A stretch of 64,000 nt of DNA from Mesorhizobium sp. (GCF_004963255.1 NZ_SUGA01000032.1:286-64285); one strand, 5' to 3'. Counted from the stretch's first letter, positions 19 to 25,672 are shown. Notes: generated from the sequence alone by a model not told the origin. Program-made: numbers and translations.

Positions 19-216
19 CTACTTCTCCGCTCGCGCCGCTTTGCGCAAATCCCCGATAGTTCGATTCCAAAAGCGTACCAATTCAAAATGCTCTTGCCTG
101 GTCACCCAGATTTTATTCTCCAGGCTGACTGGATCCCCACCAACGATGACGGGTGTAATCTCAAACAGCTCCATGCCCTTGCGGCGCGAGTGTCCGTTTT
201 TGTCGCTCATTTTCAT
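19..216 (-). CDS. Small protein with a degenerate HNH-like motif; candidate immunity protein
   Basis: 65 aa; FEITPVIVGGDPVSLENKIWVTRQEHF resembles the HNH core HxxPxxxGG...N...H but lacks the first His. Start overlaps the SMI1/KNR4 stop (213-216). Confidence 0.55.
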   Translation of the reverse strand: MKMSDKNGHSRRKGMELFEITPVIVGGDPVSLENKIWVTRQEHFELVRFWNRTIGDLRKAARAEK

Positions 217-653
217 TCCGCCAATCGAGAAAATAGGTCAGCTATGTTACGCGCCGTTTTCAAAGCTAACTTCCTGTTCATGCCTACGAACGGAACGCGT
301 ACGATTGACATATTTGGATCCTGAGTATCAAAGCCATATCCTTCACCTCCTCCGTTCGATCCAAACAAGAAGATACCTGGCGCATATTTTTCGACTTCAT
401 ACTCTCGATTGAAGTCCGCCAATTCTTCGGCCTTAAAGAAAACAACGTAGTTGTCGTGGACAAAACCCTCGCCGCCATTATGCTCTCTGAGGAAGTCGGT
501 GTAGTCCTTGGGTAGCTCGACTCCCAAGCGTGCAGACAGTCCATCGACGACTTCGGGCTCAGCTGGCGGATCAAACTGCCCCTCGGTTAAGGTATATCTC
601 ACTGCTACCCTCGCCAAATCGAAACTGACCCCAGCCAAGACGGCCGACATCAC
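213..653 (-). CDS. SMI1/KNR4 (SUKH) family immunity protein
   Basis: Motifs LGVELPKDYTDFLREHNGGEG and FLFGSNGGGEGYGFD are typical of SUKH; lies downstream of a nuclease toxin. Confidence 0.85.
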   Translation of the reverse strand: MMSAVLAGVSFDLARVAVRYTLTEGQFDPPAEPEVVDGLSARLGVELPKDYTDFLREHNGGEGFVHDNYVVFFKAEELADFNREYEVEKYAPGIFLFGSNGGGEGYGFDTQDPNMSIVRVPFVGMNRKLALKTARNIADLFSRLAE

Positions 654-1130
654 TCAATTGCCTTTGAGCTCCGGCAAAATCCTTTCGTCGAGGAATTTGA
701 GGCGACCGGCCAGCATTTCCGCATTGGCGGGCGTTGCATCGACGTTGACCGGTATTAACTTCGCCACCGACTTTCCTTGCCGAGCCGCCTCGACCCATTC
801 CTCCAAGGCACCAATGTAGCCATCAAGAGCTTCGAAAGGCGTGGCGGCGTCATCAGCAGGGATATATGTCGGCGGCACGTCGCCGACGATCACCCATGTC
901 CATCGGTTCACCTCTGGACGACCAGGCTCTATCTCGAAAAGGAAGATGTAGATAATTTCTTCGGCGCCATATCCAAAATATTCGCCTTTGATGGATAGGA
1001 CCCAGTTGTAGAATTCGAGATACTGACGGGCCTCGACGCGGGCAGAATCGAGATCATCGTCGCCCGTGCTAACGTCGGCAGGGGGCAAGCGCTTGACGCT
1101 GCCTAGGTCTGGCTTTGCAAAATTGTCCAT
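654..1130 (-). CDS. DUF4826-like hypothetical protein, candidate immunity
   Basis: WVIVGDVPPTYI...TPFEALDGY motif; abuts the SUKH gene; lower GC than host genes. Confidence 0.5.
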   Translation of the reverse strand: MDNFAKPDLGSVKRLPPADVSTGDDDLDSARVEARQYLEFYNWVLSIKGEYFGYGAEEIIYIFLFEIEPGRPEVNRWTWVIVGDVPPTYIPADDAATPFEALDGYIGALEEWVEAARQGKSVAKLIPVNVDATPANAEMLAGRLKFLDERILPELKGN

Positions 1131-1182
1131 CAGCTAAGGGCTCAATCAAAGCATATGAGATTCTCAACGGGTCTAAGCGCCG

Positions 1183-1463
1183 TCAGCTCGCAGTCCGGCT
1201 TTGGCGACGGTCGCGAACAAAATCCACGACCAACCAGATCAACTGAGCACCGACGTATACCGGCTGTGAGACCAATCCGGCGCCCCGTCATGCGAGTAGC
1301 CGTAAGCGGACGCGACAACGGCGAGCGCCGCGCAAATGATATGCACCAGCAACAGGCGAGGCATGCCGCCATTCCAGCGCTTTGTGATCCACAGCAACAA
1401 GCGGCTCAGCAAAAATGTCGGAACCAGTGCCCCGAGCAGCATCGCGCCATAATCCGCCCCCAT
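1183..1463 (-). pseudogene. Small 3-TM membrane protein gene with a 1-nt frameshift
   Basis: ATG at 1463 with GGGGA RBS gives two hydrophobic helices (MGADYGAMLLGALVPTFLL...). A shift near 1263 continues as PVYVGAQLIWLVVDFVRDRRQSRTAS-stop at 1183, adding a third helix. Confidence 0.55.
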
Positions 1464-1662
1464 GTAATCCCCCTGTCTAATTATGAACACGCCGCAGTTC
1501 CGAACTGCGGTTCACTCGATAGAATCAAAGGCGAAAATGGCCGTTCTTCGCCCTTCACCTTCCGCCCTAACAATCTGTGATTGCAACTCCTTACATATAT
1601 GCACTTATAATTGCACGCAAGCTTACCCAACCAAACGGTAGGCTGCCCTGGGCTTCTCGAGG

Positions 1663-2277
1663 TCACCCGCCTTTGACGTTTATCCGCGTCCCTGGAGGCA
1701 AACCCCTCGCTTTCGCGATGAGCTGAGCCGTAATGTGCCAATAAACTTCCAGATCTGTCAGTTCCAGATTTGCACTATCGTCTTTGCCGCCCAGGAAGAG
1801 CGGCACCTTGTAGCCGATGCATTGGTCGTAGGCAGGTTCGGCGCCACCATTCCCGCGCCACGTCGCGTAAAAATTCGAGGCCAAGGCGGCATCCTGGTAC
1901 TCATCCAATTCGATTTCATGAAAAGTGCGGATATTGGCCGGAATCTGAAGCGCCTCGCCGGTCCCTGGCTCGAACATCACGACACCAGGCTCCCCATCCT
2001 CGGTTCGTTTGGTGTCAATGGCGAATGTCCTGCCCAACCAATCGTATCCAAAACAGGTAATGCGCCCGGCGAATGCAGGGAAGCCCACGACTATTCTGCT
2101 GCTCCACGCGGCCAAATCCTGGGCACGGACGATGCGGTAAAGGCCGTGATTGAACGACACGCCACTGAAACTGGAAAGCAGCTCATTCAGGCTTGGCACA
2201 CCAGTGTCGATGCTCACAGAATCAGGCTTGCGGCCTGCGTCCGGAGAAAAGCTTTGTCGAAACTTTGGAAACATCAC
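1663..2277 (-). CDS. Tdi1-like (DUF1851) nuclease immunity protein
   Basis: FGYDWLGRTFA and CIGYKVPLFLGGKDDSANLELTDLEVYW motifs; start overlaps the toxin stop (2274-2277). Confidence 0.8.
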   Translation of the reverse strand: MMFPKFRQSFSPDAGRKPDSVSIDTGVPSLNELLSSFSGVSFNHGLYRIVRAQDLAAWSSRIVVGFPAFAGRITCFGYDWLGRTFAIDTKRTEDGEPGVVMFEPGTGEALQIPANIRTFHEIELDEYQDAALASNFYATWRGNGGAEPAYDQCIGYKVPLFLGGKDDSANLELTDLEVYWHITAQLIAKARGLPPGTRINVKGG

Positions 2278-4955: not shown

Positions 4956-5099
4956 TGGGCTGTTTCCTGGCCGGCGGTTTTGGGGGATGCGCGCAGCGGC
5001 GGGCCGCCAGAGGGTGGCGGCCAGTTCGGCGGTGCGGATGGTGAAGGTTCGGCGGGGGGCGCGGATGGCGAAAGGAGTGCGGCGAGAGCGCCTGCGTCC

Positions 5100-5316
5100 C
5101 CTTCTCCCCTTGTGGGAGAAGGTGGCCGCGAAGCGGCCGGATGAGGGGTGCTCCAGCTTGGCGGCCACTCATCCCCTTGTGAGGCGGGAGCCAAGTTTGG
5201 CGACGCCTCGTTTCTTCCAGCACCCCTCATCCGTCTCGGCGCTGGCGCGCCGATCCACCGCCCGGGGGCGAGCCACGGGCCTCGCCCCGTCCTTCAGACC
5301 CCACAGGGGGAGAAGG
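5100..5316. repeat. REP/RIME-like palindromic intergenic repeat (mosaic copy)
   Basis: Arms cttctccccttgtgggagaaggtggccgcgaagcggccggatgagggg and cccctcatccgtctcggcgc match the copies at 28531 and 51442. Confidence 0.8.
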
Positions 5317-5323
5317 AGAGGCG

Positions 5324-5647
5324 TTATCTCTCCTCGGCGCGCGCCGCTTTTTCCAGCGCCGCGAGGTCGGCGTCTTCCAGCGTCAGGAACCCCATGATGT
5401 GCTGCACGACTTCGGCGCGGGCATTGCTCAGCGCGCTGTGCAGCTCGAAGCCGTCGGGCGTCTTCGTTCGGGCCAGCCAGTCGCCGTAGGAGGGGCGGCG
5501 GTAGTAGCCTGTCGTGGCGGTGAGGTCGGCCAGCACAAGCTCGCCATCCTCGCCGGAAAAGACGCGGCGATAGGCCTTGGTCAGCGCCTCGCGCGCGGCG
5601 AGCGGGCCGCCGGCGTCGGAGGGACGGGCGAAGCGTTTGCGGCTCAT
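5324..5647 (-). CDS. Bbp19-like phage protein
   Basis: AYRRVFSGEDGELVLADL...ARAEVVQHIMGFL pattern; coupled to the portal stop, the usual position in BPP-1-like podophages. Confidence 0.65.
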   Translation of the reverse strand: MSRKRFARPSDAGGPLAAREALTKAYRRVFSGEDGELVLADLTATTGYYRRPSYGDWLARTKTPDGFELHSALSNARAEVVQHIMGFLTLEDADLAALEKAARAEER

Positions 5648-7482
5648 GCGGCACCATTGGCGGCGCCGCCCACGGGGCCGCCCTGGGAGTCAGGCACGGC
5701 GCCCTGCCCGCCGGGCATCGCGCCTTGCGTCGCGCCGGCCGAACCGGCAGCGCCGCCGCCTGCCCCGCCTTGGGCGCCCTGCATCATCGCCTGAAGGCTG
5801 TCGAGCAGGCCGCTGTCTCGCGCCTGCACGGCGGCCGGCACCGCGTCCTTGGCCACCTTGCCGGCGGTGGCGATCGCCGCCATGCCGGCCTGCGCCTGCT
5901 GTGCCTGGGCGCGCGCGCCGCGCATCCCTTCCACCTCGTCCTTGCGCCGGAAAATGCGCTGCGGGCTGCGGCCGGCGCTCTGCACGACGCGGATCGCCTC
6001 GTCGCCGTCGATATTGTCCATGATGCCGGGATCGAACTGCGCCATCTGCATGGCGGTGGTCACCACCTGGATGGTGTCGCGGGCCTCGGCCGAGCGGCGC
6101 AGCACGTCGAGCGGGCCGGTGAAGGTCGGCCGCACCGCCTTGCCGGCGAGGCTTTCCGGCGGGCGGAAGCGGCTGTCCTGGTCGTAGAGGCCTTTGTCCT
6201 CGAGGATCGACAGCTCGCGATCGAGATTGGCGGCAAAGCCGGCCTGGATGATCGAGCCGGAGGGACCGAGCAGCGCGCCCTTCTCCTCCTGGCGGATCAG
6301 CGCCTCGGTCGCGGTCATCTGCGGGTTCTGCACCAGCGTCTGGAAAAGGTTGACGAACATCATGTCGCGGATCTCCTCCGCCCGGCTCGCCGCATAGTCG
6401 AAGGCATAGCTCGGGTTCTGGCCGGTGGCGATCGGCTGGATCAGCGGCCGGCCATTGTCGTCGATCAGGCCAGGATAATTCTCGCCGGGATTGAGCACCG
6501 GCACATAATCGAGCCTGGCCTTGGAGGCCCTCGGCGGATCGGTGATCTGCTGCAGCGCGCGCAAGCCGGAGCGGCGCACGGCGTTCTCCTCGCGCACCGT
6601 GGTCAGCGCCTCGATGGCCGGCGAGATGCCGTAGGCGTCGCCCTCGTAGCGGCGCCAGTTGAAGGTCGAGACCGGGAAGGTGCGGAAGCCGGACTCGCGC
6701 ACGATCTCCTCCTCGTCCTCAATGACGTGGTAAGAGGCGAAGGCCTGGTCGAGATACTGGTAGAAACCGCCCTTGCGGTACATGCGGCGCTCGTCGCGCG
6801 GCTGCACGCATTGGATCAGCGAGATCTTCTCCTCGCATTTGGCCGGGTCGTCGACCAGCGCCTTGATGCGCGCCGGCAGCTTTTCATAGCCGAGCAATTG
6901 CGCCGCCTGGCGCGCCGTGCGCTCGTAGCGGCGGTGGAAAATGTCGACCTGGCCCCAGCGGTTGCGCGACAGATAGCCCTCGACCACGGGGATCGAGGCG
7001 TAGCGGATCAGCGTGCCGCCGAACCCTTCCTCGGCATAGAGATAGGCCGGGCCGTAGCGGACGACGTTGCGCAGACAGGCCTGCGTCGCCGGCACGAAGT
7101 TGGAGTTGGCGGAATAGCGCAGCGCGAACAGGAAATCGCGCAAGGCCTCGGCCCATTCCTTCTCCTCGTCGGTTTCCTCGTCGTTCATCTCGGCCGTGGT
7201 CAGCCCATGCCATTTTTCGGACTGCGGGATGATCAGGCTTTCCAGACCAGCCGCAAGACGGTTGGCGGCGCTGTTGATGGTGTTGGCGTAGACGCGCGAA
7301 CCGCGGCGCTCCTGCCGCTCGGCCTGGCTGTCCGAGCGGCTGGTGCGGCGGCCCGACCAGATGTCGGGCGCATCCGGATCGCAGAACTCCGCCACCGCCT
7401 CCCAGACGGGCTCGTAAGTGGCGCGTTCGGTCTCGAGTTCGGCCTGTCGCGACAGGATATCGCGGGCGCGGGAGTCGGTCAT
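5644..7482 (-). CDS. Phage portal (head-to-tail connector, T7/BPP-1-like)
   Basis: 612 aa intact ORF with W...GYGISPAIEAL, MTATEALIRQEEKGALLGP and FTGPL patterns of head-to-tail connectors; Gly/Ala/Gln-rich tail; host-like GC. Confidence 0.85.
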   Translation of the reverse strand: MTDSRARDILSRQAELETERATYEPVWEAVAEFCDPDAPDIWSGRRTSRSDSQAERQERRGSRVYANTINSAANRLAAGLESLIIPQSEKWHGLTTAEMNDEETDEEKEWAEALRDFLFALRYSANSNFVPATQACLRNVVRYGPAYLYAEEGFGGTLIRYASIPVVEGYLSRNRWGQVDIFHRRYERTARQAAQLLGYEKLPARIKALVDDPAKCEEKISLIQCVQPRDERRMYRKGGFYQYLDQAFASYHVIEDEEEIVRESGFRTFPVSTFNWRRYEGDAYGISPAIEALTTVREENAVRRSGLRALQQITDPPRASKARLDYVPVLNPGENYPGLIDDNGRPLIQPIATGQNPSYAFDYAASRAEEIRDMMFVNLFQTLVQNPQMTATEALIRQEEKGALLGPSGSIIQAGFAANLDRELSILEDKGLYDQDSRFRPPESLAGKAVRPTFTGPLDVLRRSAEARDTIQVVTTAMQMAQFDPGIMDNIDGDEAIRVVQSAGRSPQRIFRRKDEVEGMRGARAQAQQAQAGMAAIATAGKVAKDAVPAAVQARDSGLLDSLQAMMQGAQGGAGGGAAGSAGATQGAMPGGQGAVPDSQGGPVGGAANGAA

Positions 7483-7655
7483 GTTGTGCCTTTCACGAGG
7501 GCCATGGGACACTGGTGGATGCATATCGGTCGCGTGCACCGCAAAAGGTTCTTGTGCGACGCAACAATCAATGCGTAGATGGGTTTGGGTAACGGCGGTG
7601 GGGTCACGATGGCCGGAGAGCGGATCTGAGACCCGAGACGACCCACTTCGACGCC

Positions 7656-8723
7656 TTGCACGGTTTGCGAGGCATCGCTGCCGTTCTGGTGATGCTTGGT
7701 CACTTCCGTGAGCTTACGGCGCCGCATCTTGATTTGGCGCCGTCAGGCTTTCTCGCCGTCGATCTGTTCTTTCTGCTGAGCGGCTTCGTGATCGCCCACG
7801 CCTATGACGAGAAGTTCCGAAAAGGCATGTCTTTCCGGGAATTCGCGGAGGCCCGCATCGTCAGGCTCTACCCGTTATATTTCGCCGGCATCGGCATTGC
7901 CGTGGCCTGCGTGGGAGCGACCATCGCGATGCACGGGCTAAGCTCGTATTCGCGGCTGGATTTGCTTGCGAGCCTTGCGTTTTCCCTGCTTTTCCTGCCG
8001 ACGCCGCCGTCGCTTTCAGTCGGTCCAGATTTGCTTTTTCCGCTGAACGGTCCGGCATGGTCGCTTTTCTATGAACTTGTCGCCAACGCGGTTTTCGCCG
8101 CGCTGGCCCTGAGGCTCGCTCGCCGCTCGCTGGCCGCTATCTTCAGCCTTGCTTTCCTGGCGCTGGCGCTGATGGCGTGGGACGGCGTCAGCCTGGGCGG
8201 CGGCGCCCATTGGGACGGCACGATCGCGGCCCCCGCCCGGATCGCCTTTTCCTTCTTCCTCGGGGTTTACCTGCGGCGATATGCGACCGGAGACAGCCGG
8301 GATGGCAATCTTTACATGCCCATCCTGCTGGCGCTTTGCGCGGGACTGATGATCTTCCGGCCCGCCGAAAATGCGCAATTGTACGATCTGGCGATTATAG
8401 TGCTGGTCTGGCCCTGGCTTGTTCTCATGGCTTCCCGCTTGCGGCTCTCGGGCTTCTGGCGTGCGATCGCCCTGTTCTCCGGCAATATCTCCTACGCCAT
8501 CTATGCGCTTCACACGCCGCTGATCAGGATCGTGAACATCCTCGACGAATCCGTCACCGGAACCTTGCGGAACCAGCACGGCCTGCCATTCGTCGTGGGA
8601 ACATCCATTCTCGTCATCGCGGTTGCCGCGTTCGCGCACTACGTCTACGACAAGAATGTGCGGACGCTGCTGCGGCATCTGCTTTCGCTGCGGCGCGCAC
8701 GCGAGGAAGTGACGCAGTTTTAG
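7656..8723 (+). CDS. Acyltransferase-3 (OafA-like) membrane protein
   Basis: LHGLRGIAA, GFLAVDLFFLLSGFVI, WSLFYE and GNISYAIYALH motifs. Start uncertain: no in-frame ATG; CTG at 7626, TTG at 7656, or a frameshift from ATG 7609. Confidence 0.85.
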   Translation: MHGLRGIAAVLVMLGHFRELTAPHLDLAPSGFLAVDLFFLLSGFVIAHAYDEKFRKGMSFREFAEARIVRLYPLYFAGIGIAVACVGATIAMHGLSSYSRLDLLASLAFSLLFLPTPPSLSVGPDLLFPLNGPAWSLFYELVANAVFAALALRLARRSLAAIFSLAFLALALMAWDGVSLGGGAHWDGTIAAPARIAFSFFLGVYLRRYATGDSRDGNLYMPILLALCAGLMIFRPAENAQLYDLAIIVLVWPWLVLMASRLRLSGFWRAIALFSGNISYAIYALHTPLIRIVNILDESVTGTLRNQHGLPFVVGTSILVIAVAAFAHYVYDKNVRTLLRHLLSLRRAREEVTQF

Positions 8724-8779
8724 GCAAGCCGGGGTCTGCCGCACATTGGCTCGGCGGGCCGGCGATTGCGGCTTTGCTG

Positions 8780-15252: not shown

Positions 15253-15285
15253 CAGAGGAAGACCGATCAACCTGCAAGCTGAACC

Positions 15286-16338: not shown

Positions 16339-16352
16339 CAGAGAAAGACCGA

Positions 16353-17815: not shown

Positions 17816-19185
17816 AACTGAAATATTTGTGGTGCTGTTCCCAAACCATCCTTCAAGAGATTTTTCGACTGCGGTAGCTTTTTGCTGAAATCGATAGAAG
17901 GAGCCTTCGGACTCCCTGGCGGCGGCTTCATCTGTTCTGATGGGACCTCCTTCAAGTCAACCCGCAAATTGGAATTGTCGTCCGCGGATTGGGACGCCGG
18001 GTCAGATGTTCCAGAAGGAACGCCCGGACGCTCTGGCGGCGGATCTATCTGCTCCGGCAGCACCTGCGTCAGTTCAACCGGCGCATCAAAATTGTCATTG
18101 GCAAGCCCGGACGCGGATACCAGGGAACCACTGTCGGCAGCGACCGGAGAGTCACCAGCCGCAAGGGTCTCGGAGGATTGCGCAGGCGCCCGCGTCGAAG
18201 GCGACGCATCCTGGCTCTCAAAGGGTGCCTTTGAGGGCAACCCAAAGCGCTTGTCGAAATCATCCTGCCCAAGCGGGGTTACCTTCTGCGTCTGCCCGCC
18301 AAGCAATCCAGCCTCGGCAAACTGCTGCTTGACCGCCGCCTTGACGACCGGATCCGTCGTTCCGGAAAGCAGGCCGTTCATCCCGGCCCACATGTCTTGC
18401 GGCGGCATTCCGCCGAGCTCTTTCAGCACCGATCGCGGCACGGGCTCAGCGTTCTCGATGCCGAGATAGCGCTGCGTGGCGATGGTGAGGGCCAGCGCGT
18501 TCCGGACCGCGGCGGGGTCGCGCCAGCCCTGGGCCGCCGCGGCGCGCCAGGCCTCGTTCGCCTGCGGAAACGCCTTGACGGCCTCGCCGGCAGGATCGTT
18601 CTGCCTGGCTTCCAGCACGTGTTGGGCGGCAGCGGCGGTTATCCGGTAGCGCGACTGGCCCTCCGGCGAATTCGCCGCGCCGACGGCTGCGTCCAGCAGC
18701 TGGCTGTTTATGTCCCGGGCCGGCATGACACGCATGTCGAAGGCCTGCTTGCCCGTCCCCACGCTCTGGTCGAACTTCGCCAGTTGCCGGCGGCCTTCCT
18801 CGACGCCGAAGACATAGGCGAAGTCCTCGGGCTTGGGCATCACGCCGGCATAGCTGCCGGTGTCCGCAAAAGCCTTCGGGGCGTTCTGAAAGGCCAGAGA
18901 GATATTGGCGCGCGCGCCGACCAGCTGGGAGACATTGGCGGCGCGCGCACGCCGGGCAAGAGCGCCGGCGGAGCCCGGCGTGAGATCGGCAAGCACGGCG
19001 GCGAGCGGCCGATCCTTGTCCGTCAGGGCATCGACCGGCCGGTCCTTCGCCAGCGCCTGTTTCACCCTGTCATAGAGCGGCGCGAGATCGGCGGACTGGT
19101 CGCTGGCGCCGGCATTCTCGCCGGTGCCTTCGGTCTGGTCGTCGGCGCTATCCAGGAGCGTTCCGTCGCCGATCTTACGATCCAT
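17731..19185 (-). CDS. Polymorphic toxin 3 carrier (D2 + Pro-rich linker), frameshifted before the amidase tip
   Basis: LADLTPGSAGAL...GSYAGVMPKPEDFAYVFGVEEG aligns with toxin 1 ITYLKPGDIAAL...GKYPEEEPTAQDFVQVYGADLG. Confidence 0.7.
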   Translation of the reverse strand: MDRKIGDGTLLDSADDQTEGTGENAGASDQSADLAPLYDRVKQALAKDRPVDALTDKDRPLAAVLADLTPGSAGALARRARAANVSQLVGARANISLAFQNAPKAFADTGSYAGVMPKPEDFAYVFGVEEGRRQLAKFDQSVGTGKQAFDMRVMPARDINSQLLDAAVGAANSPEGQSRYRITAAAAQHVLEARQNDPAGEAVKAFPQANEAWRAAAAQGWRDPAAVRNALALTIATQRYLGIENAEPVPRSVLKELGGMPPQDMWAGMNGLLSGTTDPVVKAAVKQQFAEAGLLGGQTQKVTPLGQDDFDKRFGLPSKAPFESQDASPSTRAPAQSSETLAAGDSPVAADSGSLVSASGLANDNFDAPVELTQVLPEQIDPPPERPGVPSGTSDPASQSADDNSNLRVDLKEVPSEQMKPPPGSPKAPSIDFSKKLPQSKNLLKDGLGTAPQIFQFCRKTSRRGLNPTQKFWEKVSAMANASR

Positions 19186-19246
19186 TGTTTTGACCCTTGT
19201 AACTCTGGGATGAGTGCGAGGTGCCCTGCTCGGCTCGCCGAACACG

Positions 19247-19468
19247 CTATTCGGCGGCCGCCGCAGATTGTATGGCGATGGCCGCGTCGGTCAGCTGTTT
19301 GAACTCTTCCAGTTTCATTGGATAGTACTGGTAGTTGCCACTGGCCATGCCTGCCAGCACTACGTATTTGCGGCCTTGGCTATCGCGCTTCAAACGCAGG
19401 GAAATCGTGCATTGGCGGTCCATAATTGGCGTGTCGATCCGTTGGATGACCTTGCCAGTGATCGCCAT
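19247..19468 (-). CDS. Small hypothetical protein
   Basis: 73 aa, lower GC, between the terL fragment and toxin 3. Confidence 0.45.
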   Translation of the reverse strand: MAITGKVIQRIDTPIMDRQCTISLRLKRDSQGRKYVVLAGMASGNYQYYPMKLEEFKQLTDAAIAIQSAAAAE

Positions 19469-19562
19469 CTTGATAGAGCGGAAAATCGTCAAGAAGTTCA
19501 TGCGGTCTGCCCCAAGCTCGATGAACTTTACCGCGCGAGTTCCGCCTTGTCGCCTTCACCAT

Positions 19563-19999
19563 CTCACCTGAAAGCTCCCAGCGGATCGCTCTGCCCACCT
19601 GGCGCCGCGCCGCCTTGAACTCCGCCGGATCGACGATCGCCTCGCGCAGCATCATCACGCCGTAGCGCGTCGCGGCCATGAGATCGTCGCGCAGCTTCAC
19701 CACCTGGCCGTTCTTGCGATGGTAGAGGCGGAATTCCTCGAACCAGGCGGCTAAGGTCGAAAACACCTTGAAGCGGCCGGACTGCATGCGGTCGAGCATG
19801 TCCATTAGGCCGGCCTCGACCGAGACGGAGCCGTCGGCGAAACGGGCGTGGCCGGTCAGCATGTTCAGCCCAGGCGCGGCATATTGCTTCGCCAGCGCCA
19901 CGCCGGCGCCTTCCAGCGTCTCGCGCCGGCCGTCGCGCGGCCAGGCGAAGGGCAGCCATTCGCCCCAAGCCTTCAGCGCCACCGCCTGCATAGCGGGCG
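19563..19999 (-). pseudogene. Duplicated 3' fragment of terL with a 1-nt deletion
   Basis: Near-identical direct repeat of 22735-23172 (437 vs 438 bp); no 5' half. Confidence 0.9.
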
Positions 20000-20395
20000 A
20001 CCAATGGTCGAAACAGACAGTCGATCTCCGCCCGATCTCCGGGGCGCAGATTAGCGGCAATGTTGGAGAGGTCCCGCCGGCGTGGCGGGGACGACGCGAA
20101 TGGGCATTCAGAGATATTCAGAATCGCACGGATGTCGAGTCGACGAAGCCGACGATGATGGCACTCAGACTAGTTGGACGGCCCACGGTTGGTGTCGATT
20201 GAAGCTGCAAGGCGGCACGACCTGCAAGGGCCAATCGACGAACAATCGTGTTGCTTGATGCACACCCATACGTCGGCGTCACCATCAGCGTGTGGCAGTA
20301 ACTCAGGCGGATAGGTGATAACTTTCCCCTGGGGAAGACTCATGGTGTCTGCTCCGGTATAGTTCGTATCCCGAATCACCCAAGGAGCTGCCGCT

Positions 20396-20966: not shown

Positions 20967-21713
20967 TTATCTAGCCTTTTCAAACTCCACAAAGGGTTGA
21001 TGGACTTCTGATTGCATAACCTGAAAACCGCTAGGAACCACCGATTCAAATCGGCACAGCAGCCGAAGCTGAATTGGTGCGTCTTGATTGGTTCGAACCA
21101 CCTTGATCCTCGCACTGGCGCAAGACTTCTTGTCGATGAGAAGACGCTTAATGTCCTCGGCATAAAACGTTGGGATGTACCCGACCAAGATCGTGTCATC
21201 TTCGCCACGAAGGGCCACAGCACAAGGGTCCACAGGGTTTTGGACATCCAGCAGAGGCAACAACCTTCCGCCAATCTCCAACTTCTTTGACCAATCCAAG
21301 ACGTCTTTGTGCATATGTCGCATGGCATGGACAAAGAATTCGAGTTCATAGCGGCCGTCCGCGACGGCCGGTTCGGGGTACATCAAAATTGAATCTGTTC
21401 CTGGAATTAATCCAAATTTCGACAACAGCTCGAATTCGTTCCCCATTTCGCGAACGTTGAGCCAATGCGCCATCTTTTCAAAATCCCCCCTGCTCCGAGA
21501 AGGGATTCTGTTTGTAAACAGAGGAATTAATTCTTCAAACCGATATTGAAATTTTGGATCCATACGGAAAAGATCAAAAGGAATTGTTCTTAGATATTTT
21601 ACGCCCTTCGTAAAAACAAAGTAGTATGCGTCTTTCTCTTTAGTCAACCGCCCAATTGTATGCCATTTGCGAGTAGCGTCATCCTGCCACGCCACGAAAA
21701 TACGATTAGACAT
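20967..21713 (-). CDS. HIRAN-domain protein, partner of the HipA-like kinase
   Basis: N-terminal IFVAWQD...WHTIGRL...LFTNRIPSRSR; C-terminal NPVDPCAVAL...VGYIP HIRAN-like motif; overlaps the kinase stop; low GC. Confidence 0.75.
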   Translation of the reverse strand: MSNRIFVAWQDDATRKWHTIGRLTKEKDAYYFVFTKGVKYLRTIPFDLFRMDPKFQYRFEELIPLFTNRIPSRSRGDFEKMAHWLNVREMGNEFELLSKFGLIPGTDSILMYPEPAVADGRYELEFFVHAMRHMHKDVLDWSKKLEIGGRLLPLLDVQNPVDPCAVALRGEDDTILVGYIPTFYAEDIKRLLIDKKSCASARIKVVRTNQDAPIQLRLLCRFESVVPSGFQVMQSEVHQPFVEFEKAR

Positions 21714-22635
21714 TTGTGGCTCCCAAAATCATTGCCTGATTGGCACACAACATACGAATCGCGAAACGGGCTGCCCCTTCGTCAATCCATTCTTCGCCAA
21801 TCTGTCCAAAGACCTTGCTGAACGCCTCCTCAGAAAGCTCGCCGATGCGGGTCGCCCAAAACTGAGTAGCCTCGGGGTACACTTTGACCAATTCGTCGAC
21901 CAACTCACAGAGGTGCAGGGTGCCAGGCGTATTGCTACCGAAGAAGGCGGACTTACCGCGCTCCGCATAAGCCTCAACCGTCGCACGGTGATCTTTGGTA
22001 GTAAGTCTCATTGACCGCTTCTCAGCAGGCTCATTTCTACCGAGGGACGACGCATGATCAAAACTCGGCGCTAGATGAACGGAAATATTTTCCTTTTCGA
22101 CATTTACAACTACGCCCCAGTTCTCATGATGTCTGTCGGTGTTTCCGATCAATGCATCAAATAAAAGGTAGCCTACAAATACCTCCGTGGCCGACAAATT
22201 CTTGAGTTCCTCTTCCCATCCCACCGGCTTTCGAAGTCCTCGAAGCCGTTTTATCAGGTTCAGCACATGGCCGATCTTGTAGTCGATCTGTTGAAACCTT
22301 TTGTTCCCATCGTAACCGTCTACTACTCGCGCAAGCAGCATGTTACCCGGAATGAACTGTGCCGCATCTGGCATGAAACGCTCAGACACAACTCCTTTTA
22401 CGTCACCGATACGAGCGAAATCATACGAAGCGCATGGAATGCCCAGCAGCTTGCAAAGCTCAAAGGACACTTTTTCCGCCCAATTTTCTCCAGTATTGGG
22501 CCGACCTATCTTAAAGAGGTGCGGCCGCCGAACCAACTCGTGGCCCTCGCTGGGAAGCACCCAAGTCTTCTCTTTTGTGCCGAGACTCTCCGGACGCTGA
22601 GAAACGAAGTCGCTGATGTTGTAGACTGGAAACAC
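21706..22635 (-). CDS. HipA-like (CtkA-type) Ser/Thr kinase
   Basis: SLGTKEK, LFK...GENWAEKV, DALIGNTDRHHENWG and LAPSFDHASSL motifs; low GC. Confidence 0.85.
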   Translation of the reverse strand: MFPVYNISDFVSQRPESLGTKEKTWVLPSEGHELVRRPHLFKIGRPNTGENWAEKVSFELCKLLGIPCASYDFARIGDVKGVVSERFMPDAAQFIPGNMLLARVVDGYDGNKRFQQIDYKIGHVLNLIKRLRGLRKPVGWEEELKNLSATEVFVGYLLFDALIGNTDRHHENWGVVVNVEKENISVHLAPSFDHASSLGRNEPAEKRSMRLTTKDHRATVEAYAERGKSAFFGSNTPGTLHLCELVDELVKVYPEATQFWATRIGELSEEAFSKVFGQIGEEWIDEGAARFAIRMLCANQAMILGATNV

Positions 22636-22735
22636 GCGCTAAGCGCCCTAACCTACAGAACAATACGCTGAATCGGCCACCTTGTGTCAACGGTGCATTT
22701 AATGACTGCTGCCATCCTAGTGACGCAGAGTTCGC

Positions 22736-23491
22736 TCACCTGAAAGCTCCCAGCGGGTCGCTTTGCCCCGCCGGACGCCGCGCCGCCTTGAACTCCGCCG
22801 GATCGACCACCGCATCCCTCAGCATCATCACGCCGTAGCGCGTGGCGGCCATCAAATCGTCGCGCAGCTTCACCACCTGGCCGTTCTTGCGATGGTAGAG
22901 GCGGAATTCCTCGAACCAGGCGGCCAAGGTCGAAAACGCCTTGAAGCGGCCGGACTGCATGCGGTCGAGCATGTCCATCAGGCCGGCCTCGACCGAGACG
23001 GAGCCGTCGGCGAAACGGGCGTGGCCGGTCAGCATGTTCAGCCCATGCGCGGCATATTGCTTCGCCAGCGCCACGCCGGCGCCTTCCAGCGTCTCGCGGC
23101 GGCCGTCGCGCGGCCAGGCGAAGGGCAGCCATTCGCCCCAGGCCTTCAGCGCCAGCGCCTGCATGGCGGGCGTCTGCTGGGAGGCGCGGTGCGCCTTGGT
23201 CACATAGACGACATCGGCCTCGGTATCCCAGGCAAGCTCGACCGCGGCGGAAGGATGGTCCCAGCCGAAATCGAGCGCGCCGACCCGCGGCCACCAGCGC
23301 GGCAATTTGAACGGCTCGCAGGCGATCAACTCCTCCGCCACCGGGAAAATGCGGCCCGAGCCCAGCACCGGAATGCCTTTCGCGCGGGCCTCGCGTTCAT
23401 GCTCGGGATAGGCGGCGATGATTTCGGCGCGCTGCTCAGGCGAATAATGCCCGGCATCGTCGATGGTCATGAAGGTGACGTGGCGGGACAT
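22736..23491 (-). CDS. terL: Terminase large subunit, C-terminal nuclease half
   Basis: GALDFGWDHPSA and DDLMAATRY nuclease-domain motifs; own GGAG RBS before MSRHVTF. Confidence 0.85.
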   Translation of the reverse strand: MSRHVTFMTIDDAGHYSPEQRAEIIAAYPEHEREARAKGIPVLGSGRIFPVAEELIACEPFKLPRWWPRVGALDFGWDHPSAAVELAWDTEADVVYVTKAHRASQQTPAMQALALKAWGEWLPFAWPRDGRRETLEGAGVALAKQYAAHGLNMLTGHARFADGSVSVEAGLMDMLDRMQSGRFKAFSTLAAWFEEFRLYHRKNGQVVKLRDDLMAATRYGVMMLRDAVVDPAEFKAARRPAGQSDPLGAFR

Positions 23492-23502
23492 GGCAACTCC
23501 AG

Positions 23503-23670
23503 TTCCTCGCCCCGCGAGAGCGGGGAGAGGTGGCGCGGCGAAGCCGCGACGGAGAGGGGATGGCGCCGGCTTTGACCAGGGACGGGAGGCCATTCGCCAA
23601 GCGCTCTACGAAGGCCCCTTTCCGGCCGCTGCGCGGCCACCTCTCCCCCCGCTTCGCGCGGGGCGAGGAA
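23503..23670. repeat. REP/RIME-like palindromic repeat inside split terL
   Basis: ttcctcgcccc...ggggcgaggaa outer arms with ggggagaggtggcgcggcgaagccgcgacggag internal arm. Confidence 0.75.
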
Positions 23671-23674
23671 AAGG

Positions 23675-24028
23675 TCAGCCCTTGTACCCTTCGTTGACGC
23701 AGTCGTTCTTCCAGGCCCAGTCGAAGTCGGCCTGCGACATGGGCGAGCCGAGGCCCGGTTCGACATAGGGCCCGGCGCCGTCGATGTAGACGATGAAGCG
23801 CGTTTGCTTGGTGAAGATGCCGACCTTGCTTATGACGACGCCGCAGGTCTGTCCGGTCGCGCTGTCGCCGGTGAGATCGACATGGGAGAAGGTTGCCTCC
23901 GGATTATTGACCAGGCCACGCATCCTGGCTTCCGCCGAAGCGATCGCATCGGCGCGCCAGTCGCCGCTGGAGCCGGAGCAGGCCGAGAGCAGCGCGCAGA
24001 GAAAAAGCAGTTCTGGCAGGGGTCGCAT
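23675..24028 (-). CDS. Lipoprotein inserted between the terL halves
   Basis: MRPLPELLFLCALLSAC lipobox; 117 aa; bracketed by two related palindromic repeats. Confidence 0.75.
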   Translation of the reverse strand: MRPLPELLFLCALLSACSGSSGDWRADAIASAEARMRGLVNNPEATFSHVDLTGDSATGQTCGVVISKVGIFTKQTRFIVYIDGAGPYVEPGLGSPMSQADFDWAWKNDCVNEGYKG

Positions 24029-24120
24029 GTCGGCTCCGGATCGGCCGGAAGCTACTCGACCTCCGGTTGCGGCCAAAGCGGCATCGCAAATCATGGTTTC
24101 GGTGTGGTTTCGTGAAGCGC

Positions 24121-24290
24121 TCTTTCCTCGGCCCACGCAAGTGGGGAGAGGTGGCGCGGCGAAGCCGCGACGGAGCGGGGGCAGCGCCGGCTTTTGATGC
24201 AAGAGCGGAAAGCTGCTCGTTAAGCTTGTCGCTCTAGGACATCCCCCTCTCCGGCCGCTGCGCGACCACCCCACCTTGCGGGGGCGAAGA
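24121..24290. repeat. REP/RIME-like palindromic repeat providing the terL-N stop codon
   Basis: Same arm sequence as 23503-23670; the TerL-N ORF ends inside it at 24234. Confidence 0.75.
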
Positions 24291-24968
24291 ACCCAAGTTC
24301 TGAACCGCTTCAGCCGACAAAAACCTCAGCACCACATCGCTCATGCCGAGCAGCGGCGTGAAGGTCACGATGGTTATGCCGTCGGTGGCATTGGTGCGGG
24401 TCAGCCCCTCGGAATAAATGTCCAGCGGCGGCTCCTCGTCGAACCACACGCCGTGCAGCGTCTCGCCCTGCCATTTCTCGCGGCCCTTTTCGTAGCTCTT
24501 GAAGGAGAGCACGCTTTCACCGGCCTGGACGTCGCCACCGCCGCCCCAGCGCACGATGACGCTGTCCAACGCTCCGGGCGTACCGCGGCCCATCACCGTG
24601 CCGGCGATGGCATTGGCCGGGATCATGCCGGTGCCCCATTCGTCCTGCTGCTGCGGCGGGCCGACCAGCACGCGCTGCGGATTGTCGCGCGTGCCTTCGC
24701 CGGTGACGCCGGCGGCCCAGAGCCTGACGGGCTGATCGAACACCTTGCCCGCCCACCAGTCGGGATAGCGGCCGGTGAGGTGCATGGCCCATTCCGCGCC
24801 CCCTGCCCTGGTCTTGCCGAGCTGGTTGCCGGCCATGAACAGGCGCTCGCGGTGGGTCGCGCCCGCCGTGTGAAAGGCGGCCTGCCTTTCGTATGGCGCG
24901 TAGGCGGCGAGAAGATTACGGCGCCGCCTTCGGTCCAATTCCTCGAGCAGCGCCAGATAGGTCTGCAT
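24234..24968 (-). CDS. terL: Terminase large subunit, N-terminal ATPase half
   Basis: Walker A FMAGNQLGKT, Walker B WFDEEPP and TFTPLLG coupling motif. Confidence 0.9.
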   Translation of the reverse strand: MQTYLALLEELDRRRRRNLLAAYAPYERQAAFHTAGATHRERLFMAGNQLGKTRAGGAEWAMHLTGRYPDWWAGKVFDQPVRLWAAGVTGEGTRDNPQRVLVGPPQQQDEWGTGMIPANAIAGTVMGRGTPGALDSVIVRWGGGGDVQAGESVLSFKSYEKGREKWQGETLHGVWFDEEPPLDIYSEGLTRTNATDGITIVTFTPLLGMSDVVLRFLSAEAVQNLGSSPPQGGVVAQRPERGMS

Positions 24969-25329
24969 CGCCGTCGAGGAGCGGCCGAAGGCTCGCCTCG
25001 AGACCACGGATGCGGCTTCGGATCTCCTCATCGCTCAGTTGCTCGAGAGTGGTTTTATCGGCATCGAAACTTTCCGAGCTGGCCGCAAAATCCTTGGGCA
25101 GCAGCGTCAGCACGACCTTGAGATACTGGTCGGGCTTTTCGGCCCTGACCGCCGCGATGACGCCGGCGCCATGAGCGCTGAAATCGGCGCGAAGGGCGGC
25201 GGCGAAGTCATCGACGAGCGTCTTTCGCGGTCGTTTGCGGCAGGCGGCGGCTTGAACCGGTGCGGACCTCGCTCGCTTCGCGCCGGCGGGCTTGCGGCTC
25301 GCGGCCTTGTCGGCGTCAGGCCTGGGCAT
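24916..25329 (-). CDS. Terminase small subunit-like protein
   Basis: ADFSAHGAGVIAAVRAEKPDQYLKVVLTLLPKD and LEQLSDEEIR patterns; overlaps the terL start. Confidence 0.6.
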   Translation of the reverse strand: MPRPDADKAASRKPAGAKRARSAPVQAAACRKRPRKTLVDDFAAALRADFSAHGAGVIAAVRAEKPDQYLKVVLTLLPKDFAASSESFDADKTTLEQLSDEEIRSRIRGLEASLRPLLDGDADLSGAARGIGPKAAP

Positions 25330-25672
25330 CGGACGGTGTCGCTTTCGCTTGTCTTGCCTTGCGCGGCTTGCGCGCCGGCTTCTTGCGCGGCCTGGCGCGC
25401 CTCGGAGGCTCGCCATCGACGGCCGGCGCGGCAATCGCCTTCAGCTTCGCTGTCGCGGCACGGACCACCGAGGCATCGAGGCCCCAGCGCGGGAAGCCGA
25501 AACCGGCGACCGCGTCGACCGGTCCGCCGCGCACCATGCCGATGCGCACGCCGGGCGGAACCTGCTCGACGCGCCCAGTGCGGCGTGGCGGGTCCGCGCC
25601 TTCGAACGCGCCGATGGCGCTGACGATCTCGGCGCCGTCATCGGCGGTGATGATGGTGGCATAGCGTGGCAT
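25316..25672 (-). CDS. Hypothetical protein, first gene of the terminase operon
   Basis: GAGG RBS, MPRYATIITADDG..., basic tail; overlaps the TerS-like start. Confidence 0.55.
   Translation of the reverse strand: MPRYATIITADDGAEIVSAIGAFEGADPPRRTGRVEQVPPGVRIGMVRGGPVDAVAGFGFPRWGLDASVVRAATAKLKAIAAPAVDGEPPRRARPRKKPARKPRKARQAKATPSDAQA

What the first reader, a model, noticed from the sequence alone, without database searches (positions are those of the whole stretch)
19..25672. Capsid-less podophage packaging module coupled to a polymorphic toxin/immunity array
Seen: TerS-like, TerL, GNAT-like virion gene, small pre-portal gene, intact portal and Bbp19-like gene, all at host-like GC. Directly after Bbp19, where BPP-1/T7-like phages place scaffold and capsid genes, there is a toxin. 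No capsid, tail, integrase or replication gene is recognisable from 1 to 25.7 kb. Three toxins share carrier segments but end in different low-GC tips, each beside candidate immunity genes. Known: prophage polymorphic toxins exist (MuF family), but these carriers do not look like MuF. Inference: a domesticated phage-derived toxin system whose carriers resemble podophage internal/ejection proteins, loaded into a helper phage's virion or delivered by a reduced apparatus.
Basis: partly seen in the sequence, partly recalled or inferred. Interest (0 to 1): 0.92.

Follow-up and report, generated by a model that had tools for sequence, protein, structure and literature searches.

The report
Decayed phage-derived cluster with toxin-tipped ejection proteins
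This stretch is a half-deleted copy of a phage-derived gene cluster that sits at one fixed chromosomal site across Mesorhizobium; its "toxins" are copies of the phage's internal ejection protein carrying swappable killing domains with antidote genes, and the capsid genes are missing here only because this strain deleted them.

Summary
They are a two-ORF TerL, a GNAT-like virion gene, an intact T7/BPP-1-type portal, Bbp19 (true frame 5324-5647), three carrier-plus-tip genes and immunity genes (Tdi1-like, SUKH).

The carriers are podophage internal-virion (ejection) proteins. In relatives the gene follows tail-tube and T7_gp14-family genes, and the AF2 model matches podovirus internal proteins. 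Family tips include WHH/colicin-DNase, TNT and cell-wall hydrolase. The 893-aa tip here is an HNH nuclease module that also ends Rhs proteins.

"Capsid-less" is true only for this genome. All 48 other Mesorhizobium species with enough flank keep the major capsid gene. Here about 15 kb (scaffold to holin) is replaced by a Fic gene, with both junctions on contig C97. One toxin is frameshifted and part of terL is duplicated. Portal-less relatives hold other deletion remnants at the same doxX-msrA site. This copy is therefore a decay intermediate, not a designed capsid-less system.

The family is unusual. It has late genes only, no tyrosine integrase nearby, a fixed locus, divergence that tracks the host flanks, and dN/dS of 0.06-0.29. 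TerL is split at the ATPase/nuclease boundary in 41 of 41 loci.

The parts
25316..25777 (-). Conserved small ORF upstream of TerL. It is 'TerS-like' by position only.
   Evidence: 48-79% identical in relatives. It is kept even in the most-deleted remnants. No Pfam, PHROG or NCBIfam hit.
24234..25031 (-). TerL N-terminal (ATPase) half, a separate ORF with its own stop codon.
   Evidence: Terminase_6N positions 1-152, E 4e-18. Aligns to residues 14-227 of the single-ORF TerL of Xylella phage Xfas53. dN/dS 0.14-0.21.
23499..24295 (.). Spacer between the TerL halves. It holds two copies of a dispersed intergenic repeat (24115-24295 and 23499-23672).
   Evidence: Dozens of copies on other contigs. 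A spacer of 120-2672 nt is present in 41 of 41 relatives where both halves were seen.
22736..23593 (-). TerL C-terminal (nuclease) half. Homology starts at residue 34 of the ORF (about nt 23494).
   Evidence: Terminase_6C, E 5e-15. Aligns to Xfas53 TerL 227-453 with no residues lost at the break. dN/dS 0.09-0.13.
20967..22635 (-). Low-GC insert carrying a HipA-like kinase (21706-22635) and a HIRAN-domain protein (20967-21713).
   Evidence: HipA_C E 3e-11 and HIRAN E 8e-7. GC 0.51.
19380..20060 (-). Duplicated 3' fragment of terL (19563-19999 is 95% identical to 22735-23172).
   Evidence: blastn. Terminase_6C, E 4e-8.
17396..19245 (-). Orphan carrier gene with D2 only and no conserved N-terminus. 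Its Cys/His amidase-like tip (17396-17956) is out of frame, so it is a pseudogene.
   Evidence: phrog_24166 positions 237-525. In M. plurifarium (L034) the carrier and tip are in one frame. The tip gave no family hit.
14824..16356 (-). Three paralogous small ORFs (148, 143 and 148 aa). They look like orphan immunity genes.
   Evidence: 84% and 70% internal nucleotide repeats. About 88% nucleotide identity to the ORF that overlaps the stop of a toxin gene in G023. No Pfam hit.
13390..14604 (-). Short carrier gene: D1 plus a PLA2-like tip (YGNYGGRGWTGG ... QHDADYHD).
   Evidence: phrog_37988 positions 1-240, E 3e-91. The tip motif is invariant in 5 homologues, two of them on full-length carriers. 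AF2 plus Foldseek gave no match.
10225..10794 (-). GNAT-like internal virion protein.
   Evidence: phrog_308, E 1e-12, and a weak acyltransferase PHROG. 86-92% identical in relatives. dN/dS 0.06-0.14.
7656..9958 (.). Two acyltransferase-3 genes (8780-9958 minus strand, 7656-8723 plus strand). They are inserted cargo.
   Evidence: PF01757, E 2e-28 and 5e-30. One copy is present in some relatives.
5644..7539 (-). Intact portal of the T7/BPP-1 type.
   Evidence: PF12236, E 4e-70. phrog_332, E 1e-124. 79-96% identical in 14 of 36 other same-genus genomes. dN/dS 0.07-0.17.
5324..5647 (-). Bbp19-like gene (107 aa).
   Evidence: PF25181, E 4.7e-13. 79% identical to the G024 orthologue, which is phrog_19137.
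5079..5322 (.). Dispersed intergenic repeats between Bbp19 and the toxin gene.
   Evidence: Many copies genome-wide, several at contig ends.
2274..4955 (-). Full-length 893-aa carrier-toxin. It has helical D1-D3, a Gly-rich hydrophobic stretch, a linker and a C-terminal HNH nuclease tip (about 2274-2612).
   Evidence: phrog_37988 full length, E 0. AF2 mean pLDDT 72. BFVD matches to podovirus internal virion proteins, E down to 6e-9. The tip matches NucB and HNH domains with probability 0.96-0.97. The same tip ends Rhs/YD-shell proteins.
1663..2277 (-). Candidate cognate immunity gene; it overlaps the toxin's stop codon.
   Evidence: T6SS_Tdi1_C, E 3.8e-9.
213..1130 (-). Orphan immunity-type genes: SUKH-1 (213-653) and an unknown 158-aa ORF (654-1130).
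   Evidence: SMI1_KNR4, E 1.4e-13. The orthologues in G023 lie directly after a toxin with a different tip (78% and 92% aa identity).

Best explanation
Window 1-25.8 kb is the surviving left part of a degraded copy of a Mesorhizobium-wide, podophage-derived late-gene cluster. The cluster lies at one chromosomal site, between doxX/tryptophan dioxygenase and msrA.

Intact copies have this gene order: small ORF, TerL (two ORFs), GNAT, portal, Bbp19, scaffold, major capsid, tail tube A and B, T7-gp14-like and other internal virion proteins, a large internal-virion 'carrier' protein, tail fibre, endolysin and holin.

The three 'toxins' are paralogues of that carrier. Each has a helical N-terminal body that would be packaged in the capsid and ejected through the portal and tail. 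This is followed by a hydrophobic Gly-rich stretch and an exchangeable C-terminal effector. The effectors here are an HNH nuclease, a PLA2-like domain, and a Cys/His amidase-like domain that is now frameshifted. Immunity genes lie downstream.

Extra carrier/immunity cassettes have accumulated at two insertion points: after Bbp19, and between TerL and GNAT.

In this genome about 15 kb, from the scaffold gene to the holin, was replaced by a Fic-domain gene. The element therefore cannot build or release particles. The toxins are probably undeliverable relics or a recombination reservoir. The immunity genes may still protect against particles made by neighbouring strains.

Shown: gene identities, carrier homology, tip polymorphism, the deletion, the fixed locus, and purifying selection. 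Inferred: packaging and ejection of the carriers, toxicity, and the protective role of the immunity genes.
For: Gene identities.

Carrier as an ejection protein:
- In G023 the carrier follows tail tube A/B and a T7_gp14-family gene and precedes the endolysin and holin.
- 19 BFVD matches at E<=1e-3 are podovirus structural proteins, many with GH108, SLT or lysozyme domains.
- Weak hit to phrog_992 'head protein'.

Polymorphism:
- 118 homologues, every source-named one from Mesorhizobium, with tips including WHH/Colicin-DNase, TNT, Hydrolase_2, DUF6973 and LPD3.
- The HNH tip is shared with Rhs/YD-shell proteins at 54-58% identity.
- Immunity families Tdi1_C and SUKH.

Deletion:
- No scaffold, capsid or tail homologue in the whole assembly.
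- Both junctions lie inside contig C97 and flank a 423-aa Fic ORF.
- 48 of 48 other species keep the major capsid gene.

Decay signs: frameshifted tip, duplicated terL fragment and repeat insertions, and independent deletion remnants in 7 portal-less relatives.

Family features:
- Host genes abut both ends.
- No PF00589 integrase within the fetched 60-kb regions of the 6 relatives, or on own contigs C85 and C97.
- dN/dS 0.06-0.29.
- Element dS tracks flank dS.
- Portal distance correlates with flank distance, r 0.84-0.87, Mantel p<=0.0005.
Against: - Portal, both TerL halves and GNAT show no relaxed constraint on this genome's branch (portal: 1 amino-acid change against 7 on the G023 branch). 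Either the deletion is recent or these genes still do something.
- The C85-C97 adjacency is inferred from collinearity with G023 and from IS-like contig ends. It was not read through.
- The PLA2-like and amidase-like tips have no HMM or fold support.
- Serine recombinases and replication genes were not searched with profiles in every relative.
- No expression or particle data exist.
Confidence: 0.72

Rival explanations
1. The capsid-less set (TerS, TerL, GNAT, portal, Bbp19 and toxins) is a working domesticated system. Its carrier-toxins are loaded into a helper phage's capsid or delivered by a reduced apparatus.
For: Portal, TerL halves and GNAT are intact and show no excess amino-acid change on this branch. 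The full-length 893-aa toxin and its Tdi1-like immunity gene are intact.
Against: - The capsid-less state is unique among 49 species examined.
- It arose by a replacement deletion that also removed the lysis genes.
- The assembly holds no second portal and no related capsid or tail gene.
- One toxin is frameshifted and lacks its N-terminus.
- Sister species show a continuum of other deletions at the same site.
Confidence: 0.07
2. The family is an ordinary temperate podophage that repeatedly integrates at one attachment site. The copies seen are recent prophages, not a vertically inherited domesticated element.
For: - The distribution is patchy: 14 of 36 other same-genus genomes have the portal.
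- Cargo genes typical of prophages are present (acyltransferases, HipA-like kinase, bestrophin).
- The nearest TerL homologues are in Rhizobium phages and the temperate Xylella phage Xfas53.
Against: - No tyrosine integrase within the fetched regions of the 6 relatives or on own contigs C85 and C97, and host genes directly abut both ends.
- No early or replication genes were seen in the annotated G023 and G024 copies.
- Element divergence matches flank divergence in scale and ranking.
- Portal-less genomes keep remnants rather than empty sites.
- The best phage-isolate portal match is only 31% identical.
Confidence: 0.08
3. The C-terminal tips are entry or host-takeover enzymes of the particle, comparable to the transglycosylase on T7 gp16. 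They are not inter-bacterial toxins. The adjacent small genes only protect the producer during assembly.
For: - Structural relatives of the carrier usually carry lysozyme, SLT or GH108 domains.
- Some family members carry Hydrolase_2 or transglycosylase-like tips.
- The PLA2-like and amidase-like tips could act on the cell envelope.
Against: - The HNH, WHH/colicin-DNase and TNT tips are classic killing modules.
- The HNH tip is shared with Rhs toxins.
- Arrays of orphan immunity genes whose cognate toxins sit in other species fit inter-strain conflict better than self-protection.
Confidence: 0.13

Closest known systems
MuF polymorphic toxins of temperate phages (Jamet et al. 2017, PMC5576092)
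   Same: Both are phage-encoded. Both have a conserved N-terminal head-internal protein fused to variable C-terminal toxin domains, with immunity genes downstream. Both genes often sit next to the portal gene. Delivery by co-ejection with DNA is proposed but unproven in both cases.
   Different: There is no MuF domain. The carrier is a podophage internal-virion/ejectosome-type protein. The host element is a late-gene-only cluster at a fixed locus rather than a mobile prophage. One element can carry several carrier copies.
Podophage ejection/internal core proteins (T7 gp14-gp16; lysozyme-bearing internal virion proteins of phiKMV-like phages)
   Same: The gene slot is the same, after the tail-tube genes and a gp14-family gene. 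Both are long helical bodies. Predicted-structure matches reach E 6e-9. Both carry an enzymatic domain on the same polypeptide.
   Different: The enzymatic domain is polymorphic (nuclease, NADase, lipase-like and others) and paired with immunity genes, instead of being a fixed peptidoglycan hydrolase. There is no detectable sequence match to solved structures. The T7 core match was not significant.
Polyvalent proteins of phages and conjugative elements (Iyer et al. 2017, PMC5512222)
   Same: Both are effector domains on large virion-packaged proteins thought to be injected with DNA. UniRef names some family members 'large polyvalent protein-associated domain' proteins. One member carries an LPD3 domain.
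   Different: There is one variable effector per carrier rather than many disparate domains. Immunity genes and orphan cassettes give it polymorphic-toxin logic.
Gene transfer agents (RcGTA, BaGTA) and phage-derived bacteriocins (tailocins)
   Same: At family level: a phage structural and lysis cluster without integration or replication genes, a fixed chromosomal locus, vertical co-divergence and purifying selection.
   Different: The architecture is podovirus-type, with a T7/BPP-1-type portal. It carries toxin/immunity cargo and a split TerL. Particle production and DNA content are untested. The copy in this window lacks capsid, tail and lysis genes, so it cannot be a GTA.
Rhs/CDI orphan toxin-immunity arrays
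   Same: Both show displaced or truncated carrier fragments with alternative tips, strings of orphan immunity genes, low-GC tips, and the same HNH module at the C-terminus of Rhs proteins.
   Different: The carrier and the presumed delivery route are viral. The orphans lie upstream of the full-length gene, inside a phage morphogenesis operon.

Membership tests
Polymorphic toxin systems | Conserved N-terminal carrier with a variable C-terminal toxin domain | tested here: met
   118 homologues share D1-D3. Tips include WHH/Colicin-DNase, TNT, Hydrolase_2, DUF6973, LPD3 and HNH.
Polymorphic toxin systems | Immunity gene immediately downstream of the toxin | tested here: met
   A T6SS_Tdi1_C-family ORF overlaps the stop codon of the 893-aa gene, and a SUKH-1 gene lies nearby. 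The cognate relationship was not tested functionally.
Polymorphic toxin systems | Tip modules shared with other toxin classes, plus orphan cassettes | tested here: met
   The same HNH tip lies at the C-terminus of Rhs/YD-shell proteins. Truncated carriers and orphan immunity genes are present.
Polymorphic toxin systems | Tip is toxic and is neutralised by its immunity protein | not testable with these tools
   Needs expression assays.
MuF polymorphic toxins | N-terminal MuF (Phage_Mu_F) domain | tested here: not met
   No Pfam hit at E<=0.01 on any of the three proteins.
Podophage internal virion / ejection proteins | Gene lies in the internal-protein block after the tail-tube genes | tested here: met
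   G023 order: tail tube A/B, phrog_24149, T7_gp14-family gene, carrier, endolysin. Five further relatives have the carrier downstream of tail tube B.
Podophage internal virion / ejection proteins | Fold resembles known internal virion proteins | tested here: inconclusive
   19 BFVD matches at E<=1e-3 with probability 1.0, but TM-scores are only 0.16-0.33. No significant match to solved T7 core proteins.
Podophage internal virion / ejection proteins | Present in virions and ejected on infection | not testable with these tools
   Needs particle proteomics.
Gene transfer agent (family level) | Structural cluster without integration or replication genes, at a fixed locus | tested here: met
   No PF00589 hit in the fetched regions of the 6 relatives or on own contigs C85 and C97. 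Host genes abut both ends. Only tyrosine integrases were searched by profile.
Gene transfer agent (family level) | Vertical inheritance under purifying selection | tested here: met
   dN/dS 0.06-0.29. dS matches the flanks. Mantel r 0.84-0.87.
Gene transfer agent (family level) | Particles that package and transfer host DNA | not testable with these tools
   No experimental data.
Gene transfer agent (this window's copy) | Complete head, tail and lysis genes | tested here: not met
   Scaffold-to-holin segment deleted.
Defective (cryptic) prophage remnant | Partial phage gene set with deletions, disruptions and insertions | tested here: met
   15-kb replacement, frameshifted tip, duplicated terL fragment, repeat and IS-like insertions.

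The most novel reading that the evidence does not exclude
Intact members of this Mesorhizobium family may be a domesticated podovirus-type particle system, a GTA- or bacteriocin-like element. It would be released by its own holin and endolysin. Its ejectosome proteins would inject exchangeable toxins (nuclease, NADase, lipase-like, amidase-like) into neighbouring rhizobia. Immunity arrays would decide who survives, and packaging would be driven by a two-chain terminase. The window's copy would then be a recently disarmed locus that keeps its immunity repertoire.
Probability: 0.3. Interest if true: 0.9.

Novelty: new variant of a known kind. Interest (0 to 1): 0.66.

Why it matters
Phage-borne polymorphic toxins are so far known mainly on MuF head proteins of siphophage-type prophages. 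Here the same logic sits on a different vehicle, the podophage ejectosome protein, which is physically pushed into the target cell. This gives a direct and testable delivery route.

The surrounding element has several features of a domesticated element. It holds late genes only, has no tyrosine integrase nearby, sits at a fixed locus in at least 59 Mesorhizobium species, and has stayed under purifying selection across species-level divergence (dS 0.25-0.9).

If particles are made, this would be a new class of contact-independent weapon or gene-transfer particle in agriculturally important nitrogen-fixing symbionts. It could be relevant to strain competition for nodulation. The genus-wide split of TerL exactly at the ATPase/nuclease boundary is a natural experiment for how terminases work.

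For the scan itself, the case shows that an 'absent module' at a contig edge must be checked against the whole assembly and against orthologous loci.

Tried and rejected
- Direct tblastn of Burkholderia phage BcepC6B structural proteins against the genome found only the portal. The phage is too distant to be useful.
- phmmer of the three toxins against PDB sequences found nothing useful.
- Pfam and NCBIfam on the three tips and most island ORFs gave no hits.
- AF2 of the 404-aa protein (pLDDT 64) plus Foldseek against the PDB gave only helical-repeat noise. The PLA2 call therefore rests on the motif alone.
- Rfam found no intron in the terL spacer, and a 120-nt spacer in one species excludes an intein. 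The split is a true two-ORF arrangement.
- No tRNA that could mark an attachment site was found.
- I first took ORF 5169-5657 as Bbp19. Its Arg/Pro-rich translation and GC pattern showed it is the wrong frame, and it was replaced by 5324-5647.
- I considered that window 28.6-64 kb might hold the phage early region. Pfam shows ordinary host genes there.
- A link to BaGTA could not be established. The portal search hit nothing in the 24 sampled genomes from other families of the order, and the papers read gave no family assignment.
- Literature searches found no description of this element or of toxin-tipped podophage ejection proteins.

Full report
**Where the window lies**

The window is G000:C85:286-64285, so only 285 bp of contig lie to its left. 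The genus is Mesorhizobium, from the source names of homologues. All genes of the finding read on the minus strand, from about 25.8 kb down to 1.

**Gene inventory**

In reading order on the minus strand:
- A small conserved ORF at 25316-25777. It has no family hit, so it is 'TerS-like' by position only.
- The TerL N-terminal half at 24234-25031 (Terminase_6N positions 1-152).
- A 640-bp spacer holding two copies of a dispersed intergenic repeat.
- The TerL C-terminal half at 22736-23593 (Terminase_6N 162-215 plus Terminase_6C).
- A low-GC insert with a HipA-like kinase and a HIRAN protein.
- A 95%-identical duplicate of the terL 3' end at 19563-19999.
- A 504-aa carrier fragment at 17731-19245.
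- Three paralogous small ORFs at 14824-16356.
- A 404-aa carrier gene at 13390-14604.
- The GNAT-like internal virion gene at 10225-10794 (phrog_308).
- Two acyltransferase-3 genes.
- The portal at 5644-7539 (PF12236, E 4e-70).
- Bbp19 at 5324-5647 (PF25181, E 4.7e-13). The longer ORF 5169-5657 is a wrong frame that runs into a repeat.
- Dispersed repeats at 5079-5322.
- The full-length carrier-toxin at 2274-4955, 893 aa, with true start MVHIIPLF.
- A Tdi1_C-family ORF at 1663-2277 that overlaps the toxin's stop codon, and a SUKH-1 ORF at 213-653.

Carriers have GC of 0.66-0.71. Tips and islands have 0.50-0.56, and the host part of the window has 0.64. TerL is split and partly duplicated. TerS is unproven. 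One of the three toxins is broken.

**What the carriers are**

The 893-aa protein matches phrog_37988 over its full length, matches phrog_24166, and weakly matches phrog_992 'head protein'. D1 is shared with the 404-aa protein at 57% identity. D2 is shared with the 504-aa protein at 30%.

In the closest relative with a complete element (G023), PHROGs and Pfam give this order: scaffold-like gene, major head (phrog_247), tail tube A (phrog_394), tail tube B (phrog_376), phrog_24149, a T7_gp14-family internal virion protein, a 677-aa carrier, endolysin, holin, and then host msrA. That is the gp15/gp16 slot of T7-like phages.

The AF2 model of the 893-aa protein was built from 45 sequences and has mean pLDDT 72. 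It is an elongated helical body, then a low-confidence Gly/Ala-rich hydrophobic stretch and a linker, then a compact C-terminal domain. Against predicted viral structures it gives 19 matches at E<=1e-3, the best at 5.6e-9. These are podovirus proteins of 700-970 aa. Many carry GH108, SLT or lysozyme domains, and they include structural proteins of Vibrio phage phiVC8 and Acinetobacter phage Petty. TM-scores are low (0.16-0.33), as expected for long flexible helices, so I treat the fold evidence as supportive rather than decisive. No MuF domain is present.

**Are they polymorphic toxins?**

A search with the carrier region found 118 proteins, and every hit that a source names is from Mesorhizobium. 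Members carry different C-terminal Pfam domains. These include WHH plus Colicin-DNase, TNT, Hydrolase_2, DUF6973 and LPD3.

The tip of the 893-aa protein holds a DVDH..DLQLGG...N...N motif. In the model it matches the nuclease NucB (probability 0.96), HNH domains of type I-F Cascade (0.97) and an Rhs2-CT endonuclease toxin. The same 110-residue module, at 54-58% identity, forms the extreme C-terminus of Rhs/YD-shell proteins from other bacteria. Sharing of tips between toxin classes is a hallmark of polymorphic toxins.

The 404-aa protein ends in a cysteine-free PLA2-like motif (YGNYGGRGWTGG ... QHDADYHD). The motif is invariant in its five homologues, two of which are full-length carriers. 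Neither HMMs nor Foldseek confirm the fold.

The 504-aa gene lacks D1 and the conserved N-terminus. Its Cys/His amidase-like tip (17396-17956) is in another frame. In M. plurifarium the carrier and this tip are in one frame, so the window's copy is frameshifted.

The SUKH gene and the 148-aa paralogues are orthologues of genes that sit directly after toxins with other tips in G023. Here they are orphan immunity-type genes.

**Is the element really capsid-less?**

In this genome, yes. Homologues of the G023 scaffold, capsid, tail-tube and gp14-like genes are absent from the entire assembly. The right flank of the G023 element maps to contig C97. There, one contig contains both deletion junctions: sequence matching G023 position 26837 and sequence matching position 42268 are separated by 1.4 kb. 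That 1.4 kb encodes a 423-aa low-GC Fic-domain protein with the HPFGDGNGR motif. The start of C85 and the end of C97 both finish in IS-like multi-copy termini. The two contigs are collinear with G023, so they are probably neighbours.

In other genomes, no. The portal occurs in 14 of 36 other same-genus genomes and in 59 species-level loci of the genome collection. Of the 48 loci with at least 9 kb downstream of the portal, all 48 carry the major capsid gene, 45 of them as one full-length match. In 27 of 56 loci a carrier gene starts within 1.5 kb after the portal, as it does here, with the scaffold and capsid genes following a few kb later. Thirteen loci have carriers between TerL and GNAT. 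So 'toxin directly after Bbp19' is a common cassette insertion, not a replacement of the capsid module.

**Nature of the family**

Window 28.6-64 kb holds ordinary host genes. These include tryptophan dioxygenase, a HWE kinase, BrkB, an SDR, a GGDEF-EAL protein, a PLP enzyme, LysR and a trypsin-PDZ protease. They are syntenic with the left flank of the element in other species. doxX lies upstream in every locus whose flank reaches that far (29 loci). msrA follows the holin in G023 and G005, and lies about 3.4 kb further on in G011.

No tyrosine integrase lies within the 60-kb regions fetched from the six relatives, or on this genome's contigs C85 and C97. The annotated G023 and G024 copies contain only packaging, head, tail, internal-protein, tail-fibre/esterase and lysis genes plus cargo.

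Selection is purifying throughout. dN/dS is 0.07-0.17 for the portal, 0.14-0.21 and 0.09-0.13 for the two TerL halves, and 0.06-0.14 for GNAT. It is 0.06-0.07 for the capsid, 0.22-0.29 for tail tube B and 0.19-0.28 for the scaffold. Synonymous divergence of the element (0.25-0.7) has the same scale and ranking as that of flanking host genes (0.24-0.94). Pairwise portal distances correlate with doxX and tryptophan-dioxygenase distances, with r of 0.84 and 0.87 and Mantel p<=0.0005.

Genomes without a portal do not have empty sites. The seven examined retain different remnants between doxX and msrA:
- the small ORF only;
- the small ORF plus endolysin and holin;
- the small ORF plus both TerL halves plus endolysin and holin;
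- further variants.

A few portal-bearing copies are fragmented; L090 has its portal in six pieces. Overall, this looks like an old element that was inherited vertically. It is kept intact under selection in many lineages and lost by large deletions in others. That resembles gene transfer agents and other domesticated phage-derived machines more than an active temperate phage. Particle production has not been tested.

**The split terminase**

In all 41 loci where both halves were seen they are separate ORFs, 120-2672 nt apart. The first half ends with a conserved stop after ...AGMG. The second half starts at its own ATG behind a Shine-Dalgarno-like sequence. Against the single-ORF TerL of Xylella phage Xfas53, the halves align to residues 14-227 and 227-453 with nothing missing. 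There is no intron by Rfam, and the shortest spacers are too small for an intein. Both halves are under purifying selection. This suggests a functional two-chain terminase, which needs a biochemical test.

**Verdict on this window**

The window's locus is one decay intermediate among many. It has lost the scaffold-to-holin segment, carries a frameshifted orphan toxin and a duplicated terL fragment, and has acquired repeats and foreign low-GC inserts.

The portal shows only one amino-acid change on this genome's branch, against seven on the G023 branch. The deletion is therefore probably recent. I cannot exclude that the remaining genes still serve some function. There is no capsid, tail or second portal in the assembly that could serve as a helper.

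The most likely surviving function is immunity against toxins delivered by particles from related strains. This is an inference.

**Novelty**

I found no paper describing toxin-tipped podophage ejection proteins or this Mesorhizobium element. The nearest concepts are MuF polymorphic toxins (PMC5576092) and polyvalent proteins (PMC5512222). I class it as a new variant of a known kind. A more novel reading remains open: intact copies may be a podovirus-type toxin-injecting particle system.

Noticed in passing
window 22736-25031; loci L034-L091: TerL is encoded as two ORFs, split exactly at the ATPase/nuclease boundary (Xfas53 TerL residue 227), in all 41 Mesorhizobium loci where both halves were seen. 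Each half is under purifying selection, and the spacer has been colonised by repeats or cargo genes. It may be a natural two-chain terminase.
   Followed up: partly
window 5079-5322, 23499-23672, 24115-24295: Short dispersed intergenic repeats (about 60-180 bp, RIME-like) with dozens of copies across the assembly. Several lie at contig ends.
   Followed up: partly
window 19563-23172: A 2.7-kb low-GC insert carries a HipA-like kinase and a HIRAN-domain protein. It is bracketed by 95%-identical direct repeats of the terL 3' end, which looks like the footprint of an insertion by recombination into terL.
   Followed up: partly
G000:C97:41484-43033 (outside the window): A 423-aa low-GC Fic-domain gene (HPFGDGNGR motif) sits exactly where the scaffold-to-holin segment was lost.
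   Followed up: partly
window 42188-42295 (-) and 34464-34600 (-): Rfam matches above the gathering score to the Rhizobiales sRNAs Atu_At1 (90 bits) and ar35 (57 bits), in the host part of the window.
   Followed up: no
window 28600-54400: About 26 kb of host-type genes (SDR, BrkB, HWE kinase, tryptophan dioxygenase and others) lie between the GGDEF-EAL gene and doxX. They are absent from the same interval in G024 and G028. This is a variable chromosomal region next to the element.
   Followed up: no
L027:7890-8891 (G023): A bestrophin-family gene (PF25539, E 2e-32) sits inside the terL spacer of the sister species, so the spacer is a cargo insertion site.
   Followed up: no
L093-L099 (portal-less relatives): The doxX-msrA interval keeps differently sized remnants of the element. 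The small 'TerS-like' ORF and two unknown ORFs (homologues of window 25845-26660 and 27186-27533) recur in several remnants, and the small ORF is present in all seven. They may be regulators or host genes rather than packaging genes.
   Followed up: partly
L090 (M. waimense): The portal is in six pieces and the capsid gene in three. This is a pseudogenised copy, in contrast to the intact ORFs elsewhere.
   Followed up: no
L019:14969-16891 (G024): A 640-aa protein with a C-terminal GDSL/SGNH esterase domain lies next to a tail-fibre-like gene. It may be a receptor-modifying tailspike of the element.
   Followed up: no
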